IMG/VR virus record: IMGVR_UViG_3300022602_002120
Span: 32,001 to 96,000 of that record
Direction: 5' to 3' (one strand)
Source of the DNA: a virus
Length of the DNA stretch: 64,000 nt
Shown: one piece after another, positions 12,239 through 27,808 of the stretch
Position numbering within the stretch: position 1 is the stretch's first letter
Layout: each line of letters opens with the position of its first letter
Notes under the pieces: generated by a model
The model's input: only the letters and a program-made list of their open reading frames with translations
The model's database searches: none
Told to the model about the DNA's origin: nothing
Position numbers and translations under genes: made by a program

Positions 12239-12661
12239 TTAGTTTGTAGCTACGTTAGCCATTGTAGATGTAGCTGCAATTTGAATATCATAAGCCCAAC
12301 GATTGCCATTCCAGTCGACTACCCAGTGATCTTGTAATTCTTTAGCATAGAATTGTGTACCTGTGTAGTCATAACATATAACACTTGCTTGACCGGCTGC
12401 TAGATTACCAATGTCTGTGTTACGTAGATACACTGTAGTGTTAGCGTTAAAACTTGAGCTGTCGGCTACATCAAATCTGTGTTTACTACGTTGTTTGTAT
12501 GCAAAACCGTGTGCATGTGTTGTGCCTGTTGAGTCTGCATATTGGAAATCGATTGTGTATACGCCTGTTACTGCGTATGGTGCACCAATTGTACCACCAA
12601 TGCCACTAGCATATCCGATATCGTTTGTACTGCCTGATGTTAATTTAATAGGACGTCCCAT
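12239..12661 (-). CDS. Putative head decoration protein, MGRPIK paralog 1 (140 aa)
   Basis: Strong SD (AAGGAG), late promoter upstream; shares the N-terminus and core motifs with 11320..12228. Confidence 0.55.
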   Translation of the reverse strand: MGRPIKLTSGSTNDIGYASGIGGTIGAPYAVTGVYTIDFQYADSTGTTHAHGFAYKQRSKHRFDVADSSSFNANTTVYLRNTDIGNLAAGQASVICYDYTGTQFYAKELQDHWVVDWNGNRWAYDIQIAATSTMANVATN

Positions 12662-12682
12662 TTGTTTTTCTCCTTATGGTTG

Positions 12683-12737
12683 GCGTTCTAGGCCTACGCG
12701 GTGGGTGCCGCATAAACTCCCCTTACGGAGCGAACAC
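12683..12737 (-). ncRNA. Candidate structured 5' leader RNA (three-way junction)
   Basis: About 62% GC island. Minus-strand P1 GUGUUC/GAACGC, P2 CUCC-GUAA-GGGG, P3 UAUGCGG/CCGCGUA; lies between the late promoter and the SD. Confidence 0.55.
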
Positions 12738-19234: not shown

Positions 19235-21838
19235 TTAATTAGTGTTTGCTGCTACTCTAGCTGTATGATCTACGTTTTGTTTCATTAGTCTAGCAATTTC
19301 TGCTAAATGAGCTGTAGCTTCTGCAGAACTAACATCACCGCGTTCCTCGTCGTCCCATTGTTTATATACTTTCTTAATAGGATCTGCTTCTGGACGTTTC
19401 ATAAACTCTTCTTGCAGTTGATTTACGTCAAAACCTTCAAAGCCTTTCATACGATCTTTAATCACACCCCAACGATCTTCATTCATGCTAACCTTTGGTT
19501 GATAATCGTTTTCTCCGAATCGCTGACCTTTCATTTCACGCATAGCATCAATAGCTGTTACCAGACTTTCAACTGTGGCATTACTCAATACGCTACTAGG
19601 TCCGTTAGTAGTAACCGGACTAGTTGCTGTTTGATTAAATCCTTGAAGTTGTTTAGCTATTTCAGCTTGCAATACCGGCGAGTTGACTACAGTTTTGTCC
19701 ATACCGTCATCGCCGGTTAGGTTTCCAGATTGTAACTTCATGGCATTTATTACATCAAGTAATTTACCAGTTGATACTGTACTTAATACACTACTCGGGC
19801 CACTAATAAGTTCAGGGCCGTTTTCACCAGCAATACCTAGTTTACCTACACCAATTGCACCACCTTTATCATGTTTAGCAACGGATTTCATGTAATCAGA
19901 TTGCCAATCACTAGGCTTATTAGCCTGTGCAGCATTTGCATTTTGTGTAGCAGCAAAATCTCTTATACGTTTTTCATATTCTGCTTGCGTTTCATTTGGT
20001 TGTTTTAAGAACGCTGTACTTGATGCTCCTACTCCTTCGGCTTTATTTTCGCCTGTAGCTACTTGTGTCATAGCCGCAGTTCTATTTTCTTTTGCGATCC
20101 CAGGAGTATGAGTTTTAATACCAAGATCAGCAAGCATATCCTGTACTTGGCTTAACATTGCTTTGCTTACTTCGGCAAATTTTGCTATAGCAGGTGTTAA
20201 TTCTTGTTGAAGTGCTTTTTTCAAATCTTGCGCAGCTTCTTCTGCGCCTGTTACACTCTTAGTTAGATCATCATTTGCATCTTTTTGTGTTACTCCAGCC
20301 TCTGCTCCATCTACAGCAGCTTTTGTATATTGATTGTTGGCATCAATTTGTTTAGACATTGATGCAGAAAGATCTTTTATAGCACCATCAGCAAAATATC
20401 CAGCACGAGCCAATCCTTGGTTAGAGAGAATAGATTTATTAATCGTTTCACCGTACTTGGCATTTAAATCTGCACCTTTTTTGTAAGTTAATGTATTACT
20501 TTCCCATGCTGCATATAATTCACTGGCTTTATCTTTAGCACCTCTTACTTGTGCTTCATACATTGCACCTTCTTCGTTAATAACTGCGCCATGTGATGCA
20601 ACACGATCTTTGAAATTTTTCAGCTCAAGATCTGTCATACTTGTCATAGCCTGCTGAATAGCAGCTTGTTGTTCAGGTGATTTTTTAGCCAATTCCTGTC
20701 TAAATATTAGTTCTTTAGATGCTTGTTCAGCAACTTCCATTTTCTTTTTAGCATCTTCACCTGTAATACTAGCAATTAAACGTAGATTTTCTGCATATTT
20801 TTGTGTAGCATCTTGCACATTCTTATCAGTAACTGTTTTACCAGTGATACGCATCTGTTTAGTAACATCGGCCATTAGACCTACTTGTTCTTCAAACCCG
20901 TAACCTAATTTTAATAGCTGTTCTTGTGCGCCCGATTCTTTTAGTGCCTTACCGACACGACCTAACATCTTAGTGCCTTCAGTTACACTAATGCCAGCTG
21001 ATGCAATCTTTTCACTGCTGGCTTTAACAACATTTGACATTTGCTCAATAGTTAAACCGGCATCTCCTGCGGCATTGCGCATACCAGTCATGCCATCAGT
21101 AAACAGAGCCCCGCTAGCCGACATTTGATTAAATGCTTTGTATGTTTTTTCTACTTCTTTGCTTAAGATCTCAACACCAAACTTAGCTAATTTAGTCATT
21201 GACTCTGAACTAGCGTCTAGTGCTGATCCGAGTATTTTTGCCGCGCCGCCGACTATAAATCCAAGTCCTTCAGTTTCGACTCCTGCAGCCATAGCTACAT
21301 CACCAAAGGTACTTAATAGCTTACCAGCGCCTTTAGCCGCAGATCCTGCCATGTCAATGCCTGCGGTCATCAGATCTGTAGATAATTGTGTTCCGCTAGC
21401 ATCGTCTTGAAGATTTTTTACAAATTGTGCTGTACCTTGAGCAGCTCGACCTAGTATGTCTTTAGTTGCTTTACTAGTTGCATCTGCATATTTCTTAGTG
21501 GCTTCTTCAGCCATTTTAGTAGCAGCGGTCTTGGCTAACTCTGCTTTCATTGATTTCTTAACCGCTATTTCAGCCGCATCAGTAGTTTCATCTAGATCTT
21601 CAATAGAATCATTGAGTTCATCAATTTTCTTTTTTAGGTCGTCATAGGTGGCTTTTTGCTTTTTAGCGTCTTTGGTTAACTTGTCAATTTCTTTTTGGAA
21701 TTTTTCAGCAGATTTTCCAGACTTTTCGTAGATATCGTTTAAGTCCTTGCTGTTTGCGCCAAATCGTTCTAGGAATTCAGCAAACGCTCTTAATTGTTCT
21801 TCATTCATGCTTTTATAGACCTTGGTTTTAGCTACCAT
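19235..21838 (-). CDS. Probable tail tape measure protein (start uncertain: 21838 or 21808)
   Basis: Long alpha-helical A/K/E-rich protein; HDKGG..GIAGENGPEL motif common in tape-measure C-termini; adjacent to the gp26-like gene. Confidence 0.65.
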   Translation of the reverse strand: MVAKTKVYKSMNEEQLRAFAEFLERFGANSKDLNDIYEKSGKSAEKFQKEIDKLTKDAKKQKATYDDLKKKIDELNDSIEDLDETTDAAEIAVKKSMKAELAKTAATKMAEEATKKYADATSKATKDILGRAAQGTAQFVKNLQDDASGTQLSTDLMTAGIDMAGSAAKGAGKLLSTFGDVAMAAGVETEGLGFIVGGAAKILGSALDASSESMTKLAKFGVEILSKEVEKTYKAFNQMSASGALFTDGMTGMRNAAGDAGLTIEQMSNVVKASSEKIASAGISVTEGTKMLGRVGKALKESGAQEQLLKLGYGFEEQVGLMADVTKQMRITGKTVTDKNVQDATQKYAENLRLIASITGEDAKKKMEVAEQASKELIFRQELAKKSPEQQAAIQQAMTSMTDLELKNFKDRVASHGAVINEEGAMYEAQVRGAKDKASELYAAWESNTLTYKKGADLNAKYGETINKSILSNQGLARAGYFADGAIKDLSASMSKQIDANNQYTKAAVDGAEAGVTQKDANDDLTKSVTGAEEAAQDLKKALQQELTPAIAKFAEVSKAMLSQVQDMLADLGIKTHTPGIAKENRTAAMTQVATGENKAEGVGASSTAFLKQPNETQAEYEKRIRDFAATQNANAAQANKPSDWQSDYMKSVAKHDKGGAIGVGKLGIAGENGPELISGPSSVLSTVSTGKLLDVINAMKLQSGNLTGDDGMDKTVVNSPVLQAEIAKQLQGFNQTATSPVTTNGPSSVLSNATVESLVTAIDAMREMKGQRFGENDYQPKVSMNEDRWGVIKDRMKGFEGFDVNQLQEEFMKRPEADPIKKVYKQWDDEERGDVSSAEATAHLAEIARLMKQNVDHTARVAANTN

Positions 21839-21870
21839 AAATATAAAATATGGTACTATCAATTATTTAT
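21837..21870. promoter_or_regulatory. Face-to-face late promoters: ATAAATA plus (21837-21843) and minus (21864-21870)
   Basis: Both motifs lie in the short divergent gap between the tape measure and gp26-like genes. Confidence 0.6.
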
Positions 21871-21883
21871 AGGAAATAAAAAC

Positions 21884-22750
21884 ATGAGTCAAACTCCATC
21901 GTTTAATCAAGCTAACCCATTAGCTAGACACTTTAGACAACCAGTGATCTACACTAAACTACCTAGTCGCGGTCAGTTTTGGCCAGAAGGTAGTATAGAC
22001 ATCCCTGTTACAGGTGAAATTCCTATTCTAGCAATGAGTACTAAAGACGAAGTTATTCTACGCACACCAGATGCACTGTTAAACGGGCAAGGTGTTATTG
22101 ATGTTATTCAAAGTTGCTGTCCAACTATTAAGAACGCATGGGAAACTCCTAGTATTGACGTAGACAGCATTATTATCAGTATTCGTATTGCTAGTTATGG
22201 TAATAATATGGAGTTTACCAGCACTTGCCCACACTGTAATACCCAGCATGACTATAGCGTTGATCTAGGAGTAGTTCTACAGGGCATCGAAACACCTAAC
22301 TACAGTAGAGGTGTTGACGTAGATGGTCTTAAAATTAAACTACGTCCGCAACCATACTTTAGTCTTAACAAAACTAACATCATTGCTTTTGAAGAACAGC
22401 AATTGTTACGATCACTACAGATGATTGAAGATAATTCAGACGAAGCACAGGCTAAATTTAATGCACAGCTGAATAAACTAATCGATCTTAACATTATGAT
22501 CACTGCCGACAGTACAGAAAGCATTACCACAGAAGACGGACAACTAGTAACTGATCGTAGTTTTATCAAAGAGTTCTACACAAACTGTGATAATAAAACA
22601 GTTAAAGCGGTTAAAGCTCGTTTAGATGAATATAACAAACAAGCCAACATTAAACCATTTAATGTTATCTGTAGCGAAGAAGACTGCGCTAAGCCATTTG
22701 ATATTGATATTATATTCGATTTTGCAAGTTTTTTCGGAAAAGGCTCTTAA
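21884..22750 (+). CDS. gp26: Baseplate hub/tail assembly protein, gp26-like
   Basis: NPL..HFRQP..Y.KLPS.G motif, KDEVILRTPDALLNG, CPHC, ends FDFASFF; start moved to 21884 (AGGA RBS). Confidence 0.8.
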   Translation: MSQTPSFNQANPLARHFRQPVIYTKLPSRGQFWPEGSIDIPVTGEIPILAMSTKDEVILRTPDALLNGQGVIDVIQSCCPTIKNAWETPSIDVDSIIISIRIASYGNNMEFTSTCPHCNTQHDYSVDLGVVLQGIETPNYSRGVDVDGLKIKLRPQPYFSLNKTNIIAFEEQQLLRSLQMIEDNSDEAQAKFNAQLNKLIDLNIMITADSTESITTEDGQLVTDRSFIKEFYTNCDNKTVKAVKARLDEYNKQANIKPFNVICSEEDCAKPFDIDIIFDFASFFGKGS

Positions 22751-22770
22751 CTCTAGATAACGCCAGCGTC

Positions 22771-22965
22771 GTGTCCTTACTCGAAGGATATGACAAAGAA
22801 GTAAGAGCCTTAAAAGATGATGCGTTACGTATGTGTTGGTATATGCGTGGTGGGTTAAGTTATGATGATGCTATGTTGCTAAGTCAAACAGAAAAAGAAA
22901 TTATCAATAAGATAGTTAAAGATAATTTAGAAACTACCCAAAAGAGTCATTTGCCTTTCTTTTAA
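22771..22965 (+). CDS. gp51-like small tail/baseplate assembly ORF; possibly the -1 frameshift extension of the gp26-like gene
   Basis: W/Y motif (WYMRGGLSYDDAMLLS); no SD before the GTG; this frame is open from 22708, across the slippery site T TTT TTC (22729-22735). Confidence 0.65.
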   Translation: MSLLEGYDKEVRALKDDALRMCWYMRGGLSYDDAMLLSQTEKEIINKIVKDNLETTQKSHLPFF

Positions 22966-23062
22966 TAAAAGTCATTATATTACATACAAGAGTAGTTGTG
23001 TGGCATATATTCTAGACTAATCCATTTGTGTAGTATAATTCGTAATATATTCCATACAAGAA

Positions 23063-23510
23063 AGATGTCTCTGACATCTGCGTTATCGCTATCGCTCAAC
23101 GCTTTTTCTTCTAATCTAAATTACGTTAGTTATTTTGAATTACTGTACTGCTCTTAAACGTTATCATCCAGATTTGGTCATACTTCACCTATCCGAGGCA
23201 AAGTATAAGTCGCATCATCCGAGTTGACAGTCATACTAACTAAAAGAGATTGTTAATCAATAACACGGAGGCGGTCAGCCGGTACCCCCTACTCTAGCTT
23301 CTTCTGACGGGTGCTGTATAGCCATAGTTAGCTAACTATACTAGTCACGTGAGTTGTATTGCTTTTTCTTCAGAGCTCACATCATTTGGCGTTTAGGCCT
23401 AATTGATCGTCGGTGCCATCCAGTGTGTAGTCTACTCTACACGTTCCAAGTGCGGCCATTACGCGAGCACCATCTCCTCTGGATACAGAACTTAATCTGC
23501 AATAGGGCTA
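23063..23510 (-). ncRNA. Candidate large structured ncRNA or cis-element; strand inferred from the upstream operon
   Basis: Largest non-coding gap; about 45% GC by hand count over 23161-23510 against AT-rich spacers elsewhere; many helices and a possible pseudoknot (see findings). Confidence 0.5.
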
Positions 23511-23512
23511 AT

Positions 23513-23950
23513 TTACTTCTTTATTACTAGATCTTTTACTGAATTCTTGCCAAGTTTAATTTGTATAATGCCGTTGTAGTTGTTTTCACGAAGTAATACA
23601 TGTTCTGTGAATTGGTAGTAGGCCTCTAAGTAGTTTGTTTCGCCTCTACTGTTACATAAATGAATTATGTCACGAGTAAAGTTTTCTTTGCCATGTGTGT
23701 CAATATCTGCTTGTAGTCGCGGACTAGATCCCCAGTAGGTCTTCCAATCTGTTTCTACAACTTCACGACGTTTGTTTTTCTTGCCTTTTAGAGGTGGTCT
23801 CTTTTTGATAGTAGTGAAATATTTGCGGCCAACATAATCGTGACCATTTATATTATTTGTAATTCTGTAGATAAAACCATAATAAGTGCCGATATCCTCG
23901 GATTCAAATGCTACACCGTTATAAATCCAAGGATAATCGTATGATGCCAT
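23513..23950 (-). CDS. Minimal GIY-YIG family nuclease (145 aa)
   Basis: GFIYRITNNINGHDYVGRK (GIY-YIG box), WKTYWGSS, YLEA (Glu) and YNG (Asn); no obvious C-terminal DNA-binding domain. Confidence 0.8.
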   Translation of the reverse strand: MASYDYPWIYNGVAFESEDIGTYYGFIYRITNNINGHDYVGRKYFTTIKKRPPLKGKKNKRREVVETDWKTYWGSSPRLQADIDTHGKENFTRDIIHLCNSRGETNYLEAYYQFTEHVLLRENNYNGIIQIKLGKNSVKDLVIKK

Positions 23951-23953
23951 AAG

Positions 23954-24145
23954 TTATTTAGCGGCTTTAGCTGCGTTTTTCTTCTCTTGAATTTCTGCAC
24001 GACGAGCTTTGGTTAGTTTACCTAGGTCGCCCAATGCACCACGAGCACGTGTTCCTGCCGCTGCTACACCTTTTTCTTCAAATTTAGCATGTTCTGTTAA
24101 GTATGCTTCATATGCTGCTACGATTTGTTCATGATTTGTTGCCAT
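23954..24145 (-). CDS. Histone H1-like (Hc1-type) nucleoid protein (63 aa)
   Basis: EKGVAAAGTRARGAL.DL.KL.K..R pattern resembles bacterial Hc1-family proteins; basic C-terminus; SD AAGGAG. Confidence 0.7.
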   Translation of the reverse strand: MATNHEQIVAAYEAYLTEHAKFEEKGVAAAGTRARGALGDLGKLTKARRAEIQEKKNAAKAAK

Positions 24146-24166
24146 TTTTTACTTCTCCTTGTGAAA

Positions 24167-25183
24167 TTACCATTCTGTTGCGTACTGCTGATTTACCACT
24201 GATATATTACATTTAGTCCTACATTCGGTCCTGGAGAAAATTTCAAACTCTTCGCTCCAATACTGGTCATTTAGGACCTCATTTAATGATCTTTGATTCA
24301 GATCAAACTGGTTCTTACTTACATCTAACCACTCGTTGTTATGTGAATATCTATTTGCTACCCAACAACAAGGAAATAAATGTCCTTGACTGTTGATAAA
24401 CAAACCCTTATTACCGATTCCACATAACGGAGTTACTTCGCCAAACGTTTCTGCTTGGTTATATAATCTTAAATTAGTTTTTGCACCTACTGTACTTTCT
24501 TTACGTTCATTGAATTGTGTAAAAATCCGTTGGAATCTGTAGTTAGTACTAATTAAGTTATCCTTGGGCTGTAATTGGTCGCTTTCTGGGTATATACTAT
24601 ATACTTTATTAAACTTTGTACTTAACGTCAACTGAAATTGATCAAACCCTAGTTCTTTGGCCAACAATTTCATATCATCTAATTTATCTTCGTTAAATTT
24701 AAATGCAATAGCATCCCAGGTCATATAAACATGACTGCTATTGCGTAAGGTAGTAACGCCTTGAATGATACTCGACCAATTGCTGTTTATACGATATTGT
24801 TCGTTACTGCCTTGATCCCATCCATCCAAACTAAAGTGAATATGATCATTATGATCTAATGCTTGCCCTAGTCTAGCCCACCAGTCAACATTTTTATAGC
24901 TACCGTTGGTAACAATAACAAATTTCACTGGTTTAACACTTTTAATATATTCGATCACGTCTATTAAGCTATGTGCATATATAGGATCACCATCGTCGCC
25001 ACAAAACGTAATCTTTTCTACGTTGTCTTGTATAAATTCTGGAGTAAAATTCTTCTTAAAGAAATTTAAACTTAATTCTGTGTTTACTAAGGTGTCGGGA
25101 ACTTCTGTGCGAGCACAGCGCGGACATTTTAATGTACACTTACTGGATATTTCGATATGCCAATGCCACGTTGCTAATTTCAA
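24167..25183 (-). CDS. Radical SAM enzyme with SPASM/twitch-like C-terminus (paralog A)
   Basis: CTLKCPRC (CxxxCxxC), FCGDDGDP, FSLDG, C-terminal CG..GHLFPCCW..C..KC. Confidence 0.9.
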   Translation of the reverse strand: MKLATWHWHIEISSKCTLKCPRCARTEVPDTLVNTELSLNFFKKNFTPEFIQDNVEKITFCGDDGDPIYAHSLIDVIEYIKSVKPVKFVIVTNGSYKNVDWWARLGQALDHNDHIHFSLDGWDQGSNEQYRINSNWSSIIQGVTTLRNSSHVYMTWDAIAFKFNEDKLDDMKLLAKELGFDQFQLTLSTKFNKVYSIYPESDQLQPKDNLISTNYRFQRIFTQFNERKESTVGAKTNLRLYNQAETFGEVTPLCGIGNKGLFINSQGHLFPCCWVANRYSHNNEWLDVSKNQFDLNQRSLNEVLNDQYWSEEFEIFSRTECRTKCNISVVNQQYATEW

Positions 25184-26043
25184 AATTCGACCTCACGTTG
25201 CCATTGGTTTGAGTAACTTGTACCATTTAAGTTTTTTGTACAGGTTGCAACACAAGTTGCATTAGGTGATATCGAATCCCAGGATTCTTGCACAATGTTA
25301 AAATAGTCAATAGTGTGACTAGTATTGCCCAACCAGCAACACGGATACACTATACCCTTGGTAGAAATATATAGACTTTGTTCTTTAAGAGCAACACAAT
25401 CAATAGTTCCGATATTTACACTAGGATTTTTCCATCCGGTAGGGGGATTTAAAAAAGATATAGGGTGATTAGTATGCCGACGACTAACTTTAGCTCGAAA
25501 CCATTTAAATCCTAATTCTTTTGCTAATGTTTGTGCTTGATCTACCTGATGTTGATTATGTTCAAATACTAACATTTCCCAGTGAGCTCTACCGCCGGCG
25601 GCAATAAATGCCTGCGCATTTTCTATAACCTTATCCCAACCAACATTTACTCTGTATATGTGATTGGTATCGTTTAATCCGTCGATACTAAAAATTACAT
25701 AATCTTTCTGATAAGATAACATTGCACCTAAAGAACTCCACCAAGTAGTAGACCGTAGACCTCCATTAGTATTCATACCTAATGTTATTGTGGGATTTAA
25801 TTTACGAAAATAGCTATAAATTTCTAAGGTGTGCTTGCCTGCGGCAGGATCGCCATAATTTCCACACATATACATCTTGTCTAATGCTTTGATAGTATCT
25901 TCTGAAATAGCATCTGCTATATTATCTACAGTTAAATGGTGCAGCACAGACTTATCAAACGTAGGATCAGTTTCTCTGCTACATTGCGGACATGCAGCAT
26001 TACAAGCATCTGTAGGTTCTACGTGTAATATTTTAGGTAACAT
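25180..26043 (-). CDS. Radical SAM enzyme with SPASM/twitch-like C-terminus (paralog B)
   Basis: CNAACPQC, MCGNYGDP, FSIDG, VYPCCW..C.ATC; start moved to 26043, overlapping the gp46 stop. Confidence 0.9.
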   Translation of the reverse strand: MLPKILHVEPTDACNAACPQCSRETDPTFDKSVLHHLTVDNIADAISEDTIKALDKMYMCGNYGDPAAGKHTLEIYSYFRKLNPTITLGMNTNGGLRSTTWWSSLGAMLSYQKDYVIFSIDGLNDTNHIYRVNVGWDKVIENAQAFIAAGGRAHWEMLVFEHNQHQVDQAQTLAKELGFKWFRAKVSRRHTNHPISFLNPPTGWKNPSVNIGTIDCVALKEQSLYISTKGIVYPCCWLGNTSHTIDYFNIVQESWDSISPNATCVATCTKNLNGTSYSNQWQREVEF

Positions 26044-27808
26044 CAACATCAGTATTATATGTAGTAAATCCATTCTCTTTTACTACTGTTAAAATATTGT
26101 TTACACGACCCGCTAGTTCATCTTTATGCGATACTAACCAAATAGATTTGTTATTCTCTCTGGTCATTTTCTTAAGGATAGCAAGAGCATTTTCTACACC
26201 CGACGTATCCATACCGCTGTCAACAAGTTCGTCGATAAACAATAAGTTAATTGGTTGATATAAACTTTCCCACACATCACGGAATGCCCATGATAAGCTA
26301 AGGATAAGTCTATTGCGCTCTCCACGGCTTAAGTTATCAAAATCTAACTCTCTGCCTAATTCTTCAATTTGTACACTTAGATCATTTAAGAATTTAACCT
26401 GATGTGGTAATCCAATTTTATCTAAGTAGTGGCTTAAGCGAGCATTTAAATAGCTTAAGTTCTGATCAATAATGCGTTTACGAATATAACTGTCTTTATT
26501 AGTTAGTAATTTATGTAGGAACTCTTGGTGTTCTTTAATACGTACTAGTTCATTCATATTAGTATAATCAATTTCAGCAAGTGCTGTAGTGCGCATTTCA
26601 GCTATCTGTTCTGTATAAGGATCAGTTTCTGCTTGCTTACTTATTAATTGTGTTTGTAAACTAGCCACAGTACTACGATGATGGATAGCATCTTCTTCTT
26701 TATCATAGTAAACTTTAGGTGGCGCACCTAATTCTCCTAATGCTGATTTGGCATCGCCTAGGTCTAATAGTAATTTCTCAGCGGTACTATAAGCTAAAGC
26801 TGACTCCTCTAATGATGCTTGTTTAGTTGCTAATACTTCTTCATGCTTGCTATCGTGTAAGTCTTGACCGCAAGCATAACATTTGTGATTGTTTAAGTCG
26901 GCAATTTCTTTGTCTAATTTTTTAATAGTTTTTTGCTCGCGATCCATATCGTTGCTAGCACGCTGTAAAGCTGTGTTAAGGTCTGTTAGGTCTCTACGCT
27001 TTTGATTGTATGCTGTGAGTTTTTTGTGAGCAGCAATTTCAGCGTCAATGTCGATGTGGGATAATTCTTCAATGGCAGCTACTAGCTTTGACACATCCTC
27101 AATATGTTTAGTAGTCCACATAGTTTGGCGACGTTCTAAGCTAACAATCTGTTCTTCGATACGCTTATTAGCATCAGTAATTGCTTTGATGTTAAATTCT
27201 TCTTGAGTAATCGCATCTCTGGTTGCTTTACTTTGCTCTTTAAGTGCTTCTGCTTTTTCACTTAATAGAGTAATACCAAGTAATTGTTCAATAATAGCAC
27301 GCTGATCATTCGCCTTAAGACTTAAAAACGGTTCTGTGTAGGTGTTAAGTGCAACAATGTGCTTGAACATGTCATGAGACATGCCTAGCAAGCGTTCAAT
27401 TTCGGCTTGTGTTTCTCGACTGTCACCTTGACTGTTATCATCTTTAGCTTCTTGTTCGATATCTCCAATATAAAACTTCATTACATTATGTTTACGACCG
27501 CGCTCAATCTTATAGTCGACCCCATTTACTTCAAAATCAATAGTAACTAACATGTTCTTAGCGTTAGTTTTATTGATCAAGTTATCTTTACGAATATTAG
27601 TTAGAGCATTGCCGTATAAGGCATAACTTAATGCGTTAATGATAGTAGTTTTACCTGTACCATTACGTGCTCCGCTGTCATCACCACCTAAGTCAATATT
27701 CTCGCCTAGGACTAAGGTCAAGTCCTTGCGATCAAAGTTGACGGCCTGCGTAGCATTACCCACACTCATAAAGTTTTTAACTGTAAGATATTTGATACGG
27801 AAACTCAT
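26033..27808 (-). CDS. gp46: Recombination endonuclease ATPase subunit, gp46/SbcC/Rad50 family
   Basis: Walker A NGTGKTT, coiled coils around a CYAC zinc hook, LSRGE signature, FIDELVD Walker B, VSH. Confidence 0.95.
   Translation of the reverse strand: MSFRIKYLTVKNFMSVGNATQAVNFDRKDLTLVLGENIDLGGDDSGARNGTGKTTIINALSYALYGNALTNIRKDNLINKTNAKNMLVTIDFEVNGVDYKIERGRKHNVMKFYIGDIEQEAKDDNSQGDSRETQAEIERLLGMSHDMFKHIVALNTYTEPFLSLKANDQRAIIEQLLGITLLSEKAEALKEQSKATRDAITQEEFNIKAITDANKRIEEQIVSLERRQTMWTTKHIEDVSKLVAAIEELSHIDIDAEIAAHKKLTAYNQKRRDLTDLNTALQRASNDMDREQKTIKKLDKEIADLNNHKCYACGQDLHDSKHEEVLATKQASLEESALAYSTAEKLLLDLGDAKSALGELGAPPKVYYDKEEDAIHHRSTVASLQTQLISKQAETDPYTEQIAEMRTTALAEIDYTNMNELVRIKEHQEFLHKLLTNKDSYIRKRIIDQNLSYLNARLSHYLDKIGLPHQVKFLNDLSVQIEELGRELDFDNLSRGERNRLILSLSWAFRDVWESLYQPINLLFIDELVDSGMDTSGVENALAILKKMTRENNKSIWLVSHKDELAGRVNNILTVVKENGFTTYNTDVDVT

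What the first reader, a model, noticed from the sequence alone, without database searches (positions are those of the whole stretch)
23063..23510. Large structured non-coding element fused to the 3' end of a minimal GIY-YIG nuclease gene: candidate RNA-protein system
Seen: about 550 nt without a credible ORF in an otherwise packed genome, about 45% GC. Minus-strand helices: UGCAGA/UCUGUA near the 5' end; AUCCAG (23484-23479) / CUGGAU (23423-23418) enclosing GUGUAG/CUACAC; GUGAG/CUCAC; a 16-bp palindrome (23324-23339); an interleaved pair GUCAG (23308-23304) / CUGAC (23278-23274) and GGGGGU (23289-23284) / GCCUCC (23272-23267) forming an H-type pseudoknot; AUACUU/AAGUAU (23206-23180); terminal hairpins at 23063-23102. 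It starts right at the stop of a 145-aa GIY-YIG protein with a basic insert (KKRPPLKGKKNKRR) and no evident DNA-binding domain. Established: IscB/TnpB nucleases pair with adjacent structured RNAs, and phages encode large ornate RNAs (GOLLD, ROOL). Inference: an undescribed ncRNA, possibly the partner or guide scaffold of the nuclease; a replication or packaging cis-element is the alternative.
Basis: partly seen in the sequence, partly recalled or inferred. Interest (0 to 1): 0.85.

Follow-up and report, generated by a model that had tools for sequence, protein, structure and literature searches.

The report
Twin-box structured RNA behind phage nuclease
The gene-free stretch behind a small nuclease gene of this uncultured freshwater T4-like phage encodes a real, doubly knotted non-coding RNA of about 450 bases that carries the same fast-changing 7-letter word twice; its job, and whether it works with the nuclease, is still unknown.

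Summary
Window 23512-23063 (minus strand) is a real structured RNA of about 450 nt. On 49 homologues, 96% of cells in a 90-pair model are paired. Forty pairs show compensatory changes, against 6-10 in slid controls. Both pseudoknots covary, and invariant G-U pairs fix the strand.

No Rfam model matches it here. In one divergent relative the 5' third is the orphan motif Polynucleobacter-1 (RF01718), so this is an uncatalogued, extended form of that family. This scan has already met the family on other DNA (103 notes, at least 73 genomes).

The family occurs in more than 120 IMG/VR contigs. In 134 of 139 loci a small nuclease gene lies upstream: GIY-YIG in 123, an unrelated PD-(D/E)XK in 11. Five loci have the RNA with no nuclease, two of them behind a TTGACA-17-TATAAT promoter. 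The GIY-YIG family, basic loop included, is present in 586 cultured-phage records; the four whose flank I read lack the RNA, and blastn finds the RNA in no cultured-phage record.

Two 7-nt boxes, 51 nt apart, are identical in 132 of 134 sequences across 16 variants. No complementary partner was found.

Best reading: a trans-acting RNA that shows one short word twice, co-expressed with the nuclease but not shown to guide it.

The parts
23513..23950 (-). Small GIY-YIG nuclease gene (145 aa, catalytic domain only, basic loop KKRPPLKGKKNKRR)
   Evidence: Pfam PF19835 SegE_GIY-YIG, E 2.8e-37. Invariant Y28, Y39, R93, E109 and N126 in 10 diverse homologues. AlphaFold model pLDDT 85; best PDB fold is the I-TevI catalytic domain.
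23063..23512 (-). Twin-box structured ncRNA, whole gene. The 5' end is not mapped; the 3' end is the terminator stem, with a U-rich tail to about 23053.
   Evidence: 70-98% identity over this span in relatives. Covariation statistics. G-U pairs fix the strand.
23415..23508 (-). 5' domain: P1 (23508-23506/23417-23415) closing hairpin P1a (23500-23497/23488-23485) and P2 (23484-23479/23423-18), which holds hairpins P2a (23471-67/23453-49) and P2b (23442-37/23430-25)
   Evidence: In each of P2, P2a and P2b, 5 pairs have changes on both sides (5 of 6, 5 of 5, 5 of 6), and 99-100% of cells are paired. No RF01718 match.
23349..23399 (-). Hairpins P3 (23399-97/23390-88) and P4 (23380-76/23353-49), flanking the conserved AAAUGAU
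23236..23340 (-). Conserved knotted core: P5 (23340-33/23324-17); PK2, the P5 loop GCUAAC 23331-27 with GUUAG 23240-36; PK1, GUCAG 23308-04 with CUGAC 23278-74; P6, AGAG 23295-92 with CUCU 23248-45; P7, GGGGG 23289-85 with CCUCC 23271-67; P8 (23264-61/23255-52)
   Evidence: MI/APC pairs 319/347, 335/357, 338/354, 329/379 and 296/385 are all 96-100% Watson-Crick with two or more pair types. A 27-nt core pattern is found in more than 120 IMG/VR contigs.
23214..23220 (-). Twin box 1 (GGAUGAU), preceded by ACUC and lying in the loop of a local stem of variable sequence
   Evidence: Identical to box 2 in 132 of 134 sequences. Enclosed by a local stem in 125 of 134.
23178..23208 (-). Hairpin P9 between the boxes (13 bp)
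   Evidence: 99.4% of cells paired; 2 pairs with double changes and 6 with one-sided changes.
23163..23169 (-). Twin box 2 (GGAUGAU), preceded by AUCU
23103..23162 (-). A-rich linker, poorly conserved and variable in length
   Evidence: Alignment A1 columns about 410-495.
23063..23102 (-). 3' hairpins: P10 (GCNUU-GA-GC-GNRA-GC-GA-AAN'GC; 23102-23080) and the terminator-like P11 (23079-73/23069-63), followed by UUUCUUGUAU
   Evidence: Covarying pairs 525/541, 551/555, 548/558 and 549/557. Terminator scan hit 23079-23063 on the minus strand.
22771..22965 (+). Convergent 64-aa gene, followed upstream by the baseplate-hub gene 21794-22750. This is the conserved downstream neighbour and is not part of the RNA.

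Best explanation
Window 23512-23063 (minus strand) is the gene of a stable, doubly pseudoknotted non-coding RNA of about 450 nt. It belongs to a large family of uncultured T4-like freshwater and marine phages. The family's only catalogued piece is the orphan Rfam motif Polynucleobacter-1, and this copy has a different 5' domain that the model does not detect.

Shown: the RNA fold, the strand, the family, the synteny and the twin boxes.

Inferred: it is transcribed as the last element of the operon that ends with the small GIY-YIG gene. No promoter fits in the 4 nt between the stop codon and helix P1, and a terminator-like hairpin ends the RNA. The RNA then acts in trans. Its rigid knotted body is a scaffold that displays one 7-nt word twice, box 1 in a hairpin loop and box 2 in a single-stranded stretch 51 nt downstream. 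Both copies read the same short partner, most simply by base pairing with a complementary RNA or DNA that differs between phage lineages or hosts.

On this reading the nuclease is a co-expressed neighbour and not an RNA-guided enzyme. It is probably a DNA-processing enzyme that needs no DNA-binding domain, since in 11 loci a PD-(D/E)XK nuclease replaces it in the same slot.
For: RNA and strand: 96% of cells paired, 40 of 90 pairs compensatory against 6-10 in slid controls, 0 of 500 shuffles. Invariant G-U pairs exist only on this strand. Two pseudoknots are supported by MI.

Family: 70-98% identity over 450 nt in GIY-linked loci. The core pattern is in more than 120 IMG/VR contigs and only 3 GTDB contigs. 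RF01718 hits the 5' third of the L118 homologue.

Co-transcription: the RNA starts 4 nt after the stop codon. The same junction follows the PD-(D/E)XK gene. A contig from a freshwater metatranscriptome bridges 23414-23629 in a relative, which is only a weak hint. There is a terminator at 23079-23063.

Twin boxes: identical in 132 of 134 sequences across 16 variants. There are 46 changes of state on the tree. Phylogenetically independent pairs go the same way in 16 of 16, about 12 of 12 and about 10 of 10 cases. The boxes have no Watson-Crick partner inside the RNA. Box 1 is presented in a loop in 125 of 134 sequences.

Not dependent on the nuclease: 5 loci have the RNA with no nuclease upstream, and two of them (L101, L134) show a TTGACA-17-TATAAT promoter. 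The GIY-YIG family is found in 586 cultured-phage records, and the four flanks I read (Melnitz, P-RSM4, phiN3, P-SSM2) lack the RNA. Three of those homologues that I aligned keep the basic loop. blastn finds the RNA in no record of that collection. No GIY-YIG residue tracks the box state.
Against: No partner for the boxes was found. It was not within 5-10 kb of the RNA in 132 loci. It was not in the 35-70 kb alignable between 7 large contigs that carry 6 box variants. The word is not enriched in this 188.8-kb record.

Positions 1 and 5 of the box switch between A and G. A U in a partner could pair with either, so simple pairing does not fully explain why the two copies must be identical. A copying or realignment mechanism, or contacts between identical bases, is not excluded.

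The nuclease linkage (134 of 139 loci, two folds in one slot) is stronger than mere neighbourhood would predict.

No direct evidence of a discrete transcript exists. All RNA-library data are contigs of relatives.
Confidence: 0.4

Rival explanations
1. RNA-nuclease module. The RNA is the cofactor or specificity subunit of the upstream small nuclease (GIY-YIG, or PD-(D/E)XK in other phages). The twin boxes act as two short guides that direct cleavage, for example of co-infecting relatives or host DNA.
For: A small nuclease gene lies upstream on the same strand in 134 of 139 non-redundant loci, even where the GIY-YIG is only 31-48% identical. Two unrelated folds occupy the same slot: PF19835 in 123 loci and PF24608 in 11. 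Within the records searched they are mutually exclusive. The RNA abuts the stop codon. The nuclease has no DNA-binding domain. The boxes evolve fast and in concert, as a specificity element would.
Against: The RNA occurs without any nuclease in 5 loci, two with a sigma-70-like promoter of their own. The GIY-YIG family is found in 586 cultured-phage records; the four flanks I read lack the RNA and the three homologues I aligned keep the basic loop. Whole genes are inserted between nuclease and RNA in 26 loci, a NUMOD3 homing endonuclease and an SGNH hydrolase among them. Seven-nucleotide guides are far shorter than in any known RNA-guided nuclease. No complementary target was found.
Confidence: 0.12
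2. Cis-acting 3' element of the nuclease operon. The structure stabilises or regulates the upstream mRNA (3' UTR, processing or feedback element) and has no role in trans.
For: It is directly fused to the 3' end of the operon with no room for a promoter. A metatranscriptome contig bridges the gene and the RNA. A terminator lies at its end.
Against: About 450 nt with two pseudoknots and invariant single-stranded stretches is far more than is needed for stability. The same RNA follows unrelated genes: the PD-(D/E)XK nuclease, a homing endonuclease, an SGNH hydrolase and a nucleoside phosphorylase. In L101 and L134 it has its own promoter. The twin boxes have no partner in the upstream mRNA.
Confidence: 0.1
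3. A self-sufficient 'ornate' RNA, either a ribozyme or a multimeric RNA assembly as in ROOL or GOLLD. The twin boxes would be contact or reaction sites, for example two identical cleavage, ligation or realignment sites that flank the 51-nt P9 unit.
For: It is large, has multiple pseudoknots and carries invariant unpaired nucleotides. It is phage-borne like GOLLD and ROOL. Identity rather than complementarity of two sites that flank a hairpin recalls take-off and landing sites or template-switch sites. No pairing partner was found.
Against: There is no similarity to any Rfam ribozyme or large RNA. No joint that skips from box 1 to box 2 was seen in the RNA contigs, though coverage there was nil. 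No reverse transcriptase gene is in the record. No ORF runs through the boxes.
Confidence: 0.12
4. The feature acts as DNA (replication origin, packaging site or recombination site), or it is the decayed C-terminal half of a longer homing endonuclease gene.
For: It lies in a convergent intergenic region. Homing GIY-YIG enzymes normally have a C-terminal DNA-binding domain that is missing here.
Against: Compensatory changes keep Watson-Crick and G-U pairs on one strand only. The family is conserved at 70% or more over 450 nt with stops in all frames and indels that are not multiples of three. The 145-aa length is the family norm: the phrog_447 profile is 148 long, and P-SSM2, Melnitz and phiN3 have the same length.
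Confidence: 0.02

Closest known systems
Polynucleobacter-1 RNA motif (Rfam RF01718; Weinberg et al. 2010, PMC2864571)
   Same: Same family in the wide sense. In the relative L118 the RF01718 match (39.2 bits) is the 5' third of an RNA whose remainder has the same knotted core, twin boxes and 3' hairpins as the window's RNA. The genomic setting is also the same: downstream of homologues of cyanophage gene PSSM2_218, which is this small GIY-YIG.
   Different: RF01718 does not match the window at E up to 10, because the 5' domain here has a different architecture (P1/P1a/P2/P2a/P2b). The catalogued motif is 141 nt. It covers neither pseudoknot, nor the twin boxes, nor the 3' hairpins. Its function is unknown.
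HEARO / omega-RNA of IscB, and TnpB reRNA (nuclease-associated guide RNAs)
   Same: A large structured RNA is encoded next to a compact nuclease gene. HEARO was likewise first seen as an orphan motif in the same 2010 survey.
   Different: The nuclease folds differ: GIY-YIG or PD-(D/E)XK here, not RuvC/HNH. There are no transposon ends and no long variable guide at an RNA terminus. The RNA and the nuclease each occur without the other. No target was found.
GOLLD and ROOL large ornate RNAs of phages and prophages
   Same: Phage-borne, several hundred nucleotides long, multi-pseudoknotted, with no known function.
   Different: No sequence or structure match. This RNA is smaller, and it carries twin co-evolving boxes that are not described for those RNAs.
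Antisense immunity RNAs of P1/P7 (c4) and P4 (CI), recalled from my own knowledge and not tested here
   Same: These are phage RNAs whose specificity lies in very short repeated boxes that change in concert between related phages.
   Different: In those systems the complementary boxes lie nearby in the same transcript. No complement was found here within 5-10 kb or in the alignable parts of 7 contigs. Those RNAs are also under 100 nt.
I-TevI / Seg-type GIY-YIG homing endonucleases (for the protein)
   Same: Same catalytic fold and motifs.
   Different: The protein has no linker and no DNA-binding domain. Its gene is conserved in place and not sporadic. A true NUMOD3 GIY-YIG homing endonuclease is inserted next to it in L013.

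Membership tests
Polynucleobacter-1 RNA (RF01718) | Covariance-model score at or above the gathering threshold (37 bits) | tested here: not met
   There is no RF01718 row for window 22700-24200 at E up to 10 or in the whole window. It is met by the relative L118:9956-9817 with 39.2 bits. That is 1 of 15 sources scanned.
Polynucleobacter-1 RNA (RF01718) | Location downstream of a PSSM2_218-like (GOS11034) gene | tested here: met
   Weinberg 2010 supplement. PSSM2_218 matches PF19835 at E 8.8e-55. The window gene matches PF19835 at E 2.8e-37.
Extended twin-box RNA family (this scan's working name) | The 27-nt core GAGUARGGRGUACMGGNNNACCGCYUC forming PK1/P7, two identical 7-nt boxes about 51 nt apart flanking a hairpin, and a GNRA hairpin plus terminator at the 3' end | tested here: met
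RNA-guided nuclease systems (IscB/TnpB omega-RNA type) | Obligate co-occurrence of the RNA and the nuclease | tested here: not met
   Five RNA loci have no nuclease upstream. The GIY-YIG is found in 586 cultured-phage records; the four flanks read lack the RNA and blastn finds the RNA in none of that collection.
RNA-guided nuclease systems (IscB/TnpB omega-RNA type) | A variable guide of 12 nt or more that is complementary to a target | tested here: not met
   The only concerted-variable segments are the 7-8-nt internal boxes. No complementary site co-varies with them.
RNA-guided nuclease systems (IscB/TnpB omega-RNA type) | Physical binding of the RNA to the nuclease | not testable with these tools
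   The complex predictor offered takes proteins and small ligands only.
GIY-YIG nuclease superfamily (protein) | GIY and YIG motifs with the catalytic Arg, Glu and Asn; alpha/beta catalytic fold | tested here: met
   PF19835, E 2.8e-37. Invariant Y28, Y39, R93, E109 and N126. The top PDB folds are 1LN0/1MK0, the I-TevI catalytic domain (prob 0.99-1.0, E 0.04-0.08, TM by target 0.64-0.68).
Free-standing GIY-YIG homing endonucleases (Seg, I-TevI) | C-terminal DNA-binding module (NUMOD, zinc finger, HTH) and sporadic presence | tested here: not met
   The protein ends after the catalytic domain. The gene is kept in place in 123 of 139 loci. By contrast the inserted 237-aa ORF of L013 carries NUMOD3-like repeats.
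Group I intron with an endonuclease ORF | Ribozyme core match and flanking exons of a host gene | tested here: not met
   No RF00028 row at E up to 10. The upstream gene ends with its own stop codon, and the downstream DNA is not conserved and runs into a convergent gene.
Intrinsic terminator | GC-containing stem followed by a U tract | tested here: met
   23079-23063 on the minus strand: 7 pairs, then UUCUUGUAUG. The stem covaries. In many relatives the tail is UUAAAA, so its strength varies.

The most novel reading that the evidence does not exclude
The RNA is the shared specificity subunit of a new kind of phage RNA-nuclease system, in which interchangeable minimal nucleases (GIY-YIG or PD-(D/E)XK) are directed by two identical, fast-evolving 7-8-nt boxes. 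One possible use is to tell self from co-infecting relatives, acting as an RNA-encoded 'immunity type'.
Probability: 0.08. Interest if true: 0.95.

Novelty: new variant of a known kind. Interest (0 to 1): 0.6.

Why it matters
A doubly pseudoknotted RNA of about 450 nt, present in well over a hundred uncultured T4-like phage contigs, is missing from RNA databases except for a 141-nt orphan fragment. Large conserved RNAs of this size have repeatedly turned out to be ribozymes, guides or new kinds of assemblies.

Two features make this one directly testable. First, two boxes are kept identical through dozens of independent changes, which points to a reader that has yet to be found. Second, it is almost always linked to a minimal nuclease, and either of two unrelated folds can fill that role.

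Tried and rejected
1. The single-sequence fold of either strand is not significant (z -1.56 and -1.50).
2. Rfam finds only chance snoRNA-like rows with E above 0.2. There are no tRNA or tmRNA genes in the window or the 188.8-kb record.
3. blastn of the RNA against 50,697 cultured-phage records finds nothing, even at E 10.
4. Coding readings fail. There are stops in all three frames, and no ORF leads into the boxes, so a T4 gene-60-type ribosomal hop is rejected.
5. Partner of the boxes. There is no reverse complement at a fixed place in 132 loci and no Watson-Crick covarying column inside the RNA. The word is not enriched in the genome (8 and 12 copies against a mean of 10). Two suggestive sites, at genome 164313/164393 and 142317/142346, lie inside coding genes and are chance. 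Across 7 contigs only the boxes themselves switch with the variant.
6. No residue of the GIY-YIG, the Hc1-like protein or the 64-aa protein tracks the box state.
7. No reverse transcriptase is in the record, so template jumping by a phage RT is unsupported.
8. The basic loop as an RNA-binding adaptation is rejected, because RNA-less homologues have it too.
9. RNA-library contigs leave parts of the RNA uncovered and cannot show ends or levels. Absence of cover is not used as evidence.
10. The Endonuclease VII search found nothing in five records, but the controls did not ring either. The idea that the small nuclease replaces a resolvase stays an inference.
11. phmmer against PDB sequences found nothing.

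Full report
**What is there.** The window is part of a 188.8-kb IMG/VR virus record. It has T4-like genes: a gp46-like gene, a baseplate hub and a tape measure.

On the minus strand the order is two radical-SAM genes, a 63-aa Hc1-like gene, then a 145-aa GIY-YIG gene (23950-23513; PF19835, E 2.8e-37). After that come 547 nt with no credible ORF, up to a convergent 64-aa gene and the baseplate-hub gene. GC rises to 0.44-0.46 in the gap, against 0.30-0.40 around it.

**Is the structure real?** Folding the single sequence is not convincing (z -1.56). Comparison is.

- tblastn-guided retrieval of 80 loci with GIY-YIG relatives showed that the first 450 nt or so of the gap are conserved at 70-98% identity in nearly all of them.
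- An alignment of 49 distinct homologues (A1) gave 77 RNAalifold pairs, 31 with compensatory changes, and many invariant G-U pairs. These would be C-A on the other strand, so the RNA is the window's minus strand.
- I then wrote a 90-pair model with two pseudoknots (coordinates) and counted it on A1. Of all cells, 96.0% are paired. Forty pairs change on both sides, against 6-10 when partners are slid by 1-3 columns. The covariation score is 0.291 against at most 0.056, and 0 of 500 shuffles reach the observed values.
- The same analysis added a second pseudoknot, between the P5 loop GCUAAC 23331-27 and GUUAG 23240-36, and a helix AGAG 23295-92 / CUCU 23248-45.
- The 3' end is a GNRA-capped hairpin with tandem G-A pairs, followed by a terminator-like hairpin and a U-rich tail.

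**What family?** Rfam 15 has no match in the window apart from an unrelated freshwater-2 RNA at 12659-12732.

RF01718 does not hit this window at E up to 10. It does hit the 5' third of the homologous RNA in the divergent relative L118 (39.2 bits against a gathering score of 37). The rest of that RNA has the same core, boxes and 3' hairpins. So the family has one common knotted body and at least three different 5' domains, and only one of these is catalogued.

The 2010 supplement says that Polynucleobacter-1 RNAs mostly lie downstream of homologues of cyanophage gene PSSM2_218, and that none was found in a purified phage. I confirmed that PSSM2_218 is this GIY-YIG family (E 8.8e-55). No later paper mentions the motif.

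It occurs in only three GTDB contigs. Two of them (L207, L208; contigs of 148 and 183 kb binned as a Haliscomenobacter MAG) carry the phage synteny. The third (L209) is one of the nuclease-less loci described below. This scan has met the family before on other DNA (103 notes in at least 73 genomes).

**Link to the nuclease.** There are 139 non-redundant RNA loci with at least 750 nt of upstream sequence. They divide as follows.

| Gene upstream of the RNA | Loci |
|---|---|
| Small GIY-YIG, directly adjacent | 97 |
| Small GIY-YIG, with another gene inserted between | 26 |
| 170-aa PD-(D/E)XK endonuclease (PF24608), adjacent | 10 |
| PD-(D/E)XK, with an insert | 1 |
| No nuclease | 5 |

- The inserted genes include a 237-aa NUMOD3 GIY-YIG homing endonuclease in L013 and an SGNH hydrolase in L098.
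- The PD-(D/E)XK assignment rests on PF24608 at E 2.2e-24.
- In the records searched the two nuclease families exclude each other.
- The junction is the same for both: the RNA's AGCC start follows the stop codon by a few bases.

This is stronger linkage than plain synteny would give, and it is the best argument for a functional tie.

Four facts argue against an obligate partnership.

- Three of the nuclease-less RNAs (L101, L134, L209) follow a nucleoside-phosphorylase-like gene. L101 and L134 have a near-perfect TTGACA-17-TATAAT promoter of their own.
- The GIY-YIG family occurs in 586 cultured-phage records, among them cyanophages, Melnitz and phiM12-like phages. In the four flanks I read (Melnitz, P-RSM4, phiN3, P-SSM2) no such RNA follows the gene. 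The three homologues I aligned (Melnitz, P-RSM4, phiN3) keep the 'basic insert'.
- blastn finds the RNA in no record of that collection.
- The protein models as a bare I-TevI-type catalytic domain with an inserted basic beta-hairpin.

**The twin boxes.** I noticed two GGAUGAU copies in the sequence, at 23220-23214 and 23169-23163, 51 nt apart and flanking hairpin P9.

- Across 134 homologues the two 7-mers are identical in 132. The two exceptions are alignment slips. There are 16 variants, mainly all eight forms of RGAURAW.
- On a tree built without those columns the 7-mer changes state 46 times. Phylogenetically independent pairs go the same way in 16 of 16, about 12 of 12 and about 10 of 10 cases for the three variable positions.
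- The boxes covary with nothing else in the RNA.
- Box 1 sits in the loop of a local stem of variable sequence in 125 of 134 sequences.

- No reverse complement lies at a fixed place within the loci.
- The word is not enriched in this genome, and two suggestive sites proved to be coding-sequence coincidences.
- I fetched six large contigs of relatives, which together with this record carry six box variants. In the 35-70 kb alignable per pair, apart from the more distant PD-(D/E)XK contig (about 10-20 kb), the only sites that switch with the variant are the boxes themselves.
- No residue of the GIY-YIG, the Hc1-like protein or the 64-aa neighbour tracks the box state.
- There is no reverse transcriptase in the record and no ORF through the boxes.

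**Expression.** Only contigs of relatives from three metatranscriptome studies could be laid. They cover the GIY-YIG gene and parts of the RNA, and one freshwater contig bridges gene and RNA at 23414-23629. This is a weak hint of co-transcription and nothing more.

**Verdict.** This is a genuine large ncRNA, uncatalogued in this form, and it is strongly but not obligately linked to a minimal nuclease.

The mechanism I think most likely (about 0.4) is a trans-acting RNA whose knotted body displays one short word twice to a partner still to be found. It would be co-transcribed with the nuclease operon. A true RNA-nuclease system remains possible (about 0.1) and would be the exciting outcome.

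Noticed in passing
window 12659-12732 (-): A freshwater-2 RNA (RF02980) matches at 52.4 bits, above its gathering score. This is a second orphan RNA motif in the same phage.
   Followed up: no
window 23954-24145 (-): A 63-aa protein directly upstream of the GIY-YIG gene matches the chlamydial histone H1-like Hc1 family (PF07432, E 8.9e-11). This is unusual for a phage. It is present in only some of the related loci.
   Followed up: partly
window 24167-25183 and 25180-26073 (-): Two tandem, overlapping radical-SAM/SPASM-like genes sit between the gp46-like gene (26033-27808) and the Hc1-like/GIY-YIG/RNA block.
   Followed up: no
L092:4479-4991 (+); also L118, L119, L162, L169, L180, L185, L190, L200, L206: In these relatives a 170-aa PD-(D/E)XK endonuclease (PF24608) takes the place of the GIY-YIG directly upstream of the RNA.
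   Followed up: yes
L013:4445-5158 (+): A 237-aa GIY-YIG homing endonuclease with NUMOD3-like repeats is inserted exactly between the small GIY-YIG gene and the RNA. This relative's RNA is 94% identical to the window's. The insert is absent from the window and from L014.
   Followed up: partly
L101, L134, L209 (RNA core at about -200 to +250 around the pattern): These are stand-alone copies of the RNA, with box ACGAAAU, behind a nucleoside-phosphorylase-like gene. L101 and L134 have a strong sigma-70-type promoter. L134 and L209 are flanked by Bug-family and ferredoxin-NADP-reductase-like genes, which look bacterial (Burkholderiales-like).
   Followed up: partly
G007:C1:42929-43341 (L238) and G006:C1:38789-38862 (L217): ARAGORN calls a permuted tmRNA with a tag ending in ALAA in one large relative, and a tRNA with anticodon CUA (amber-reading) in another. 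Neither was checked further.
   Followed up: no
window 22966-23062: The last 97 nt of the gap, between the terminator and the convergent gene, are not conserved among relatives and seem to be plain spacer.
   Followed up: partly
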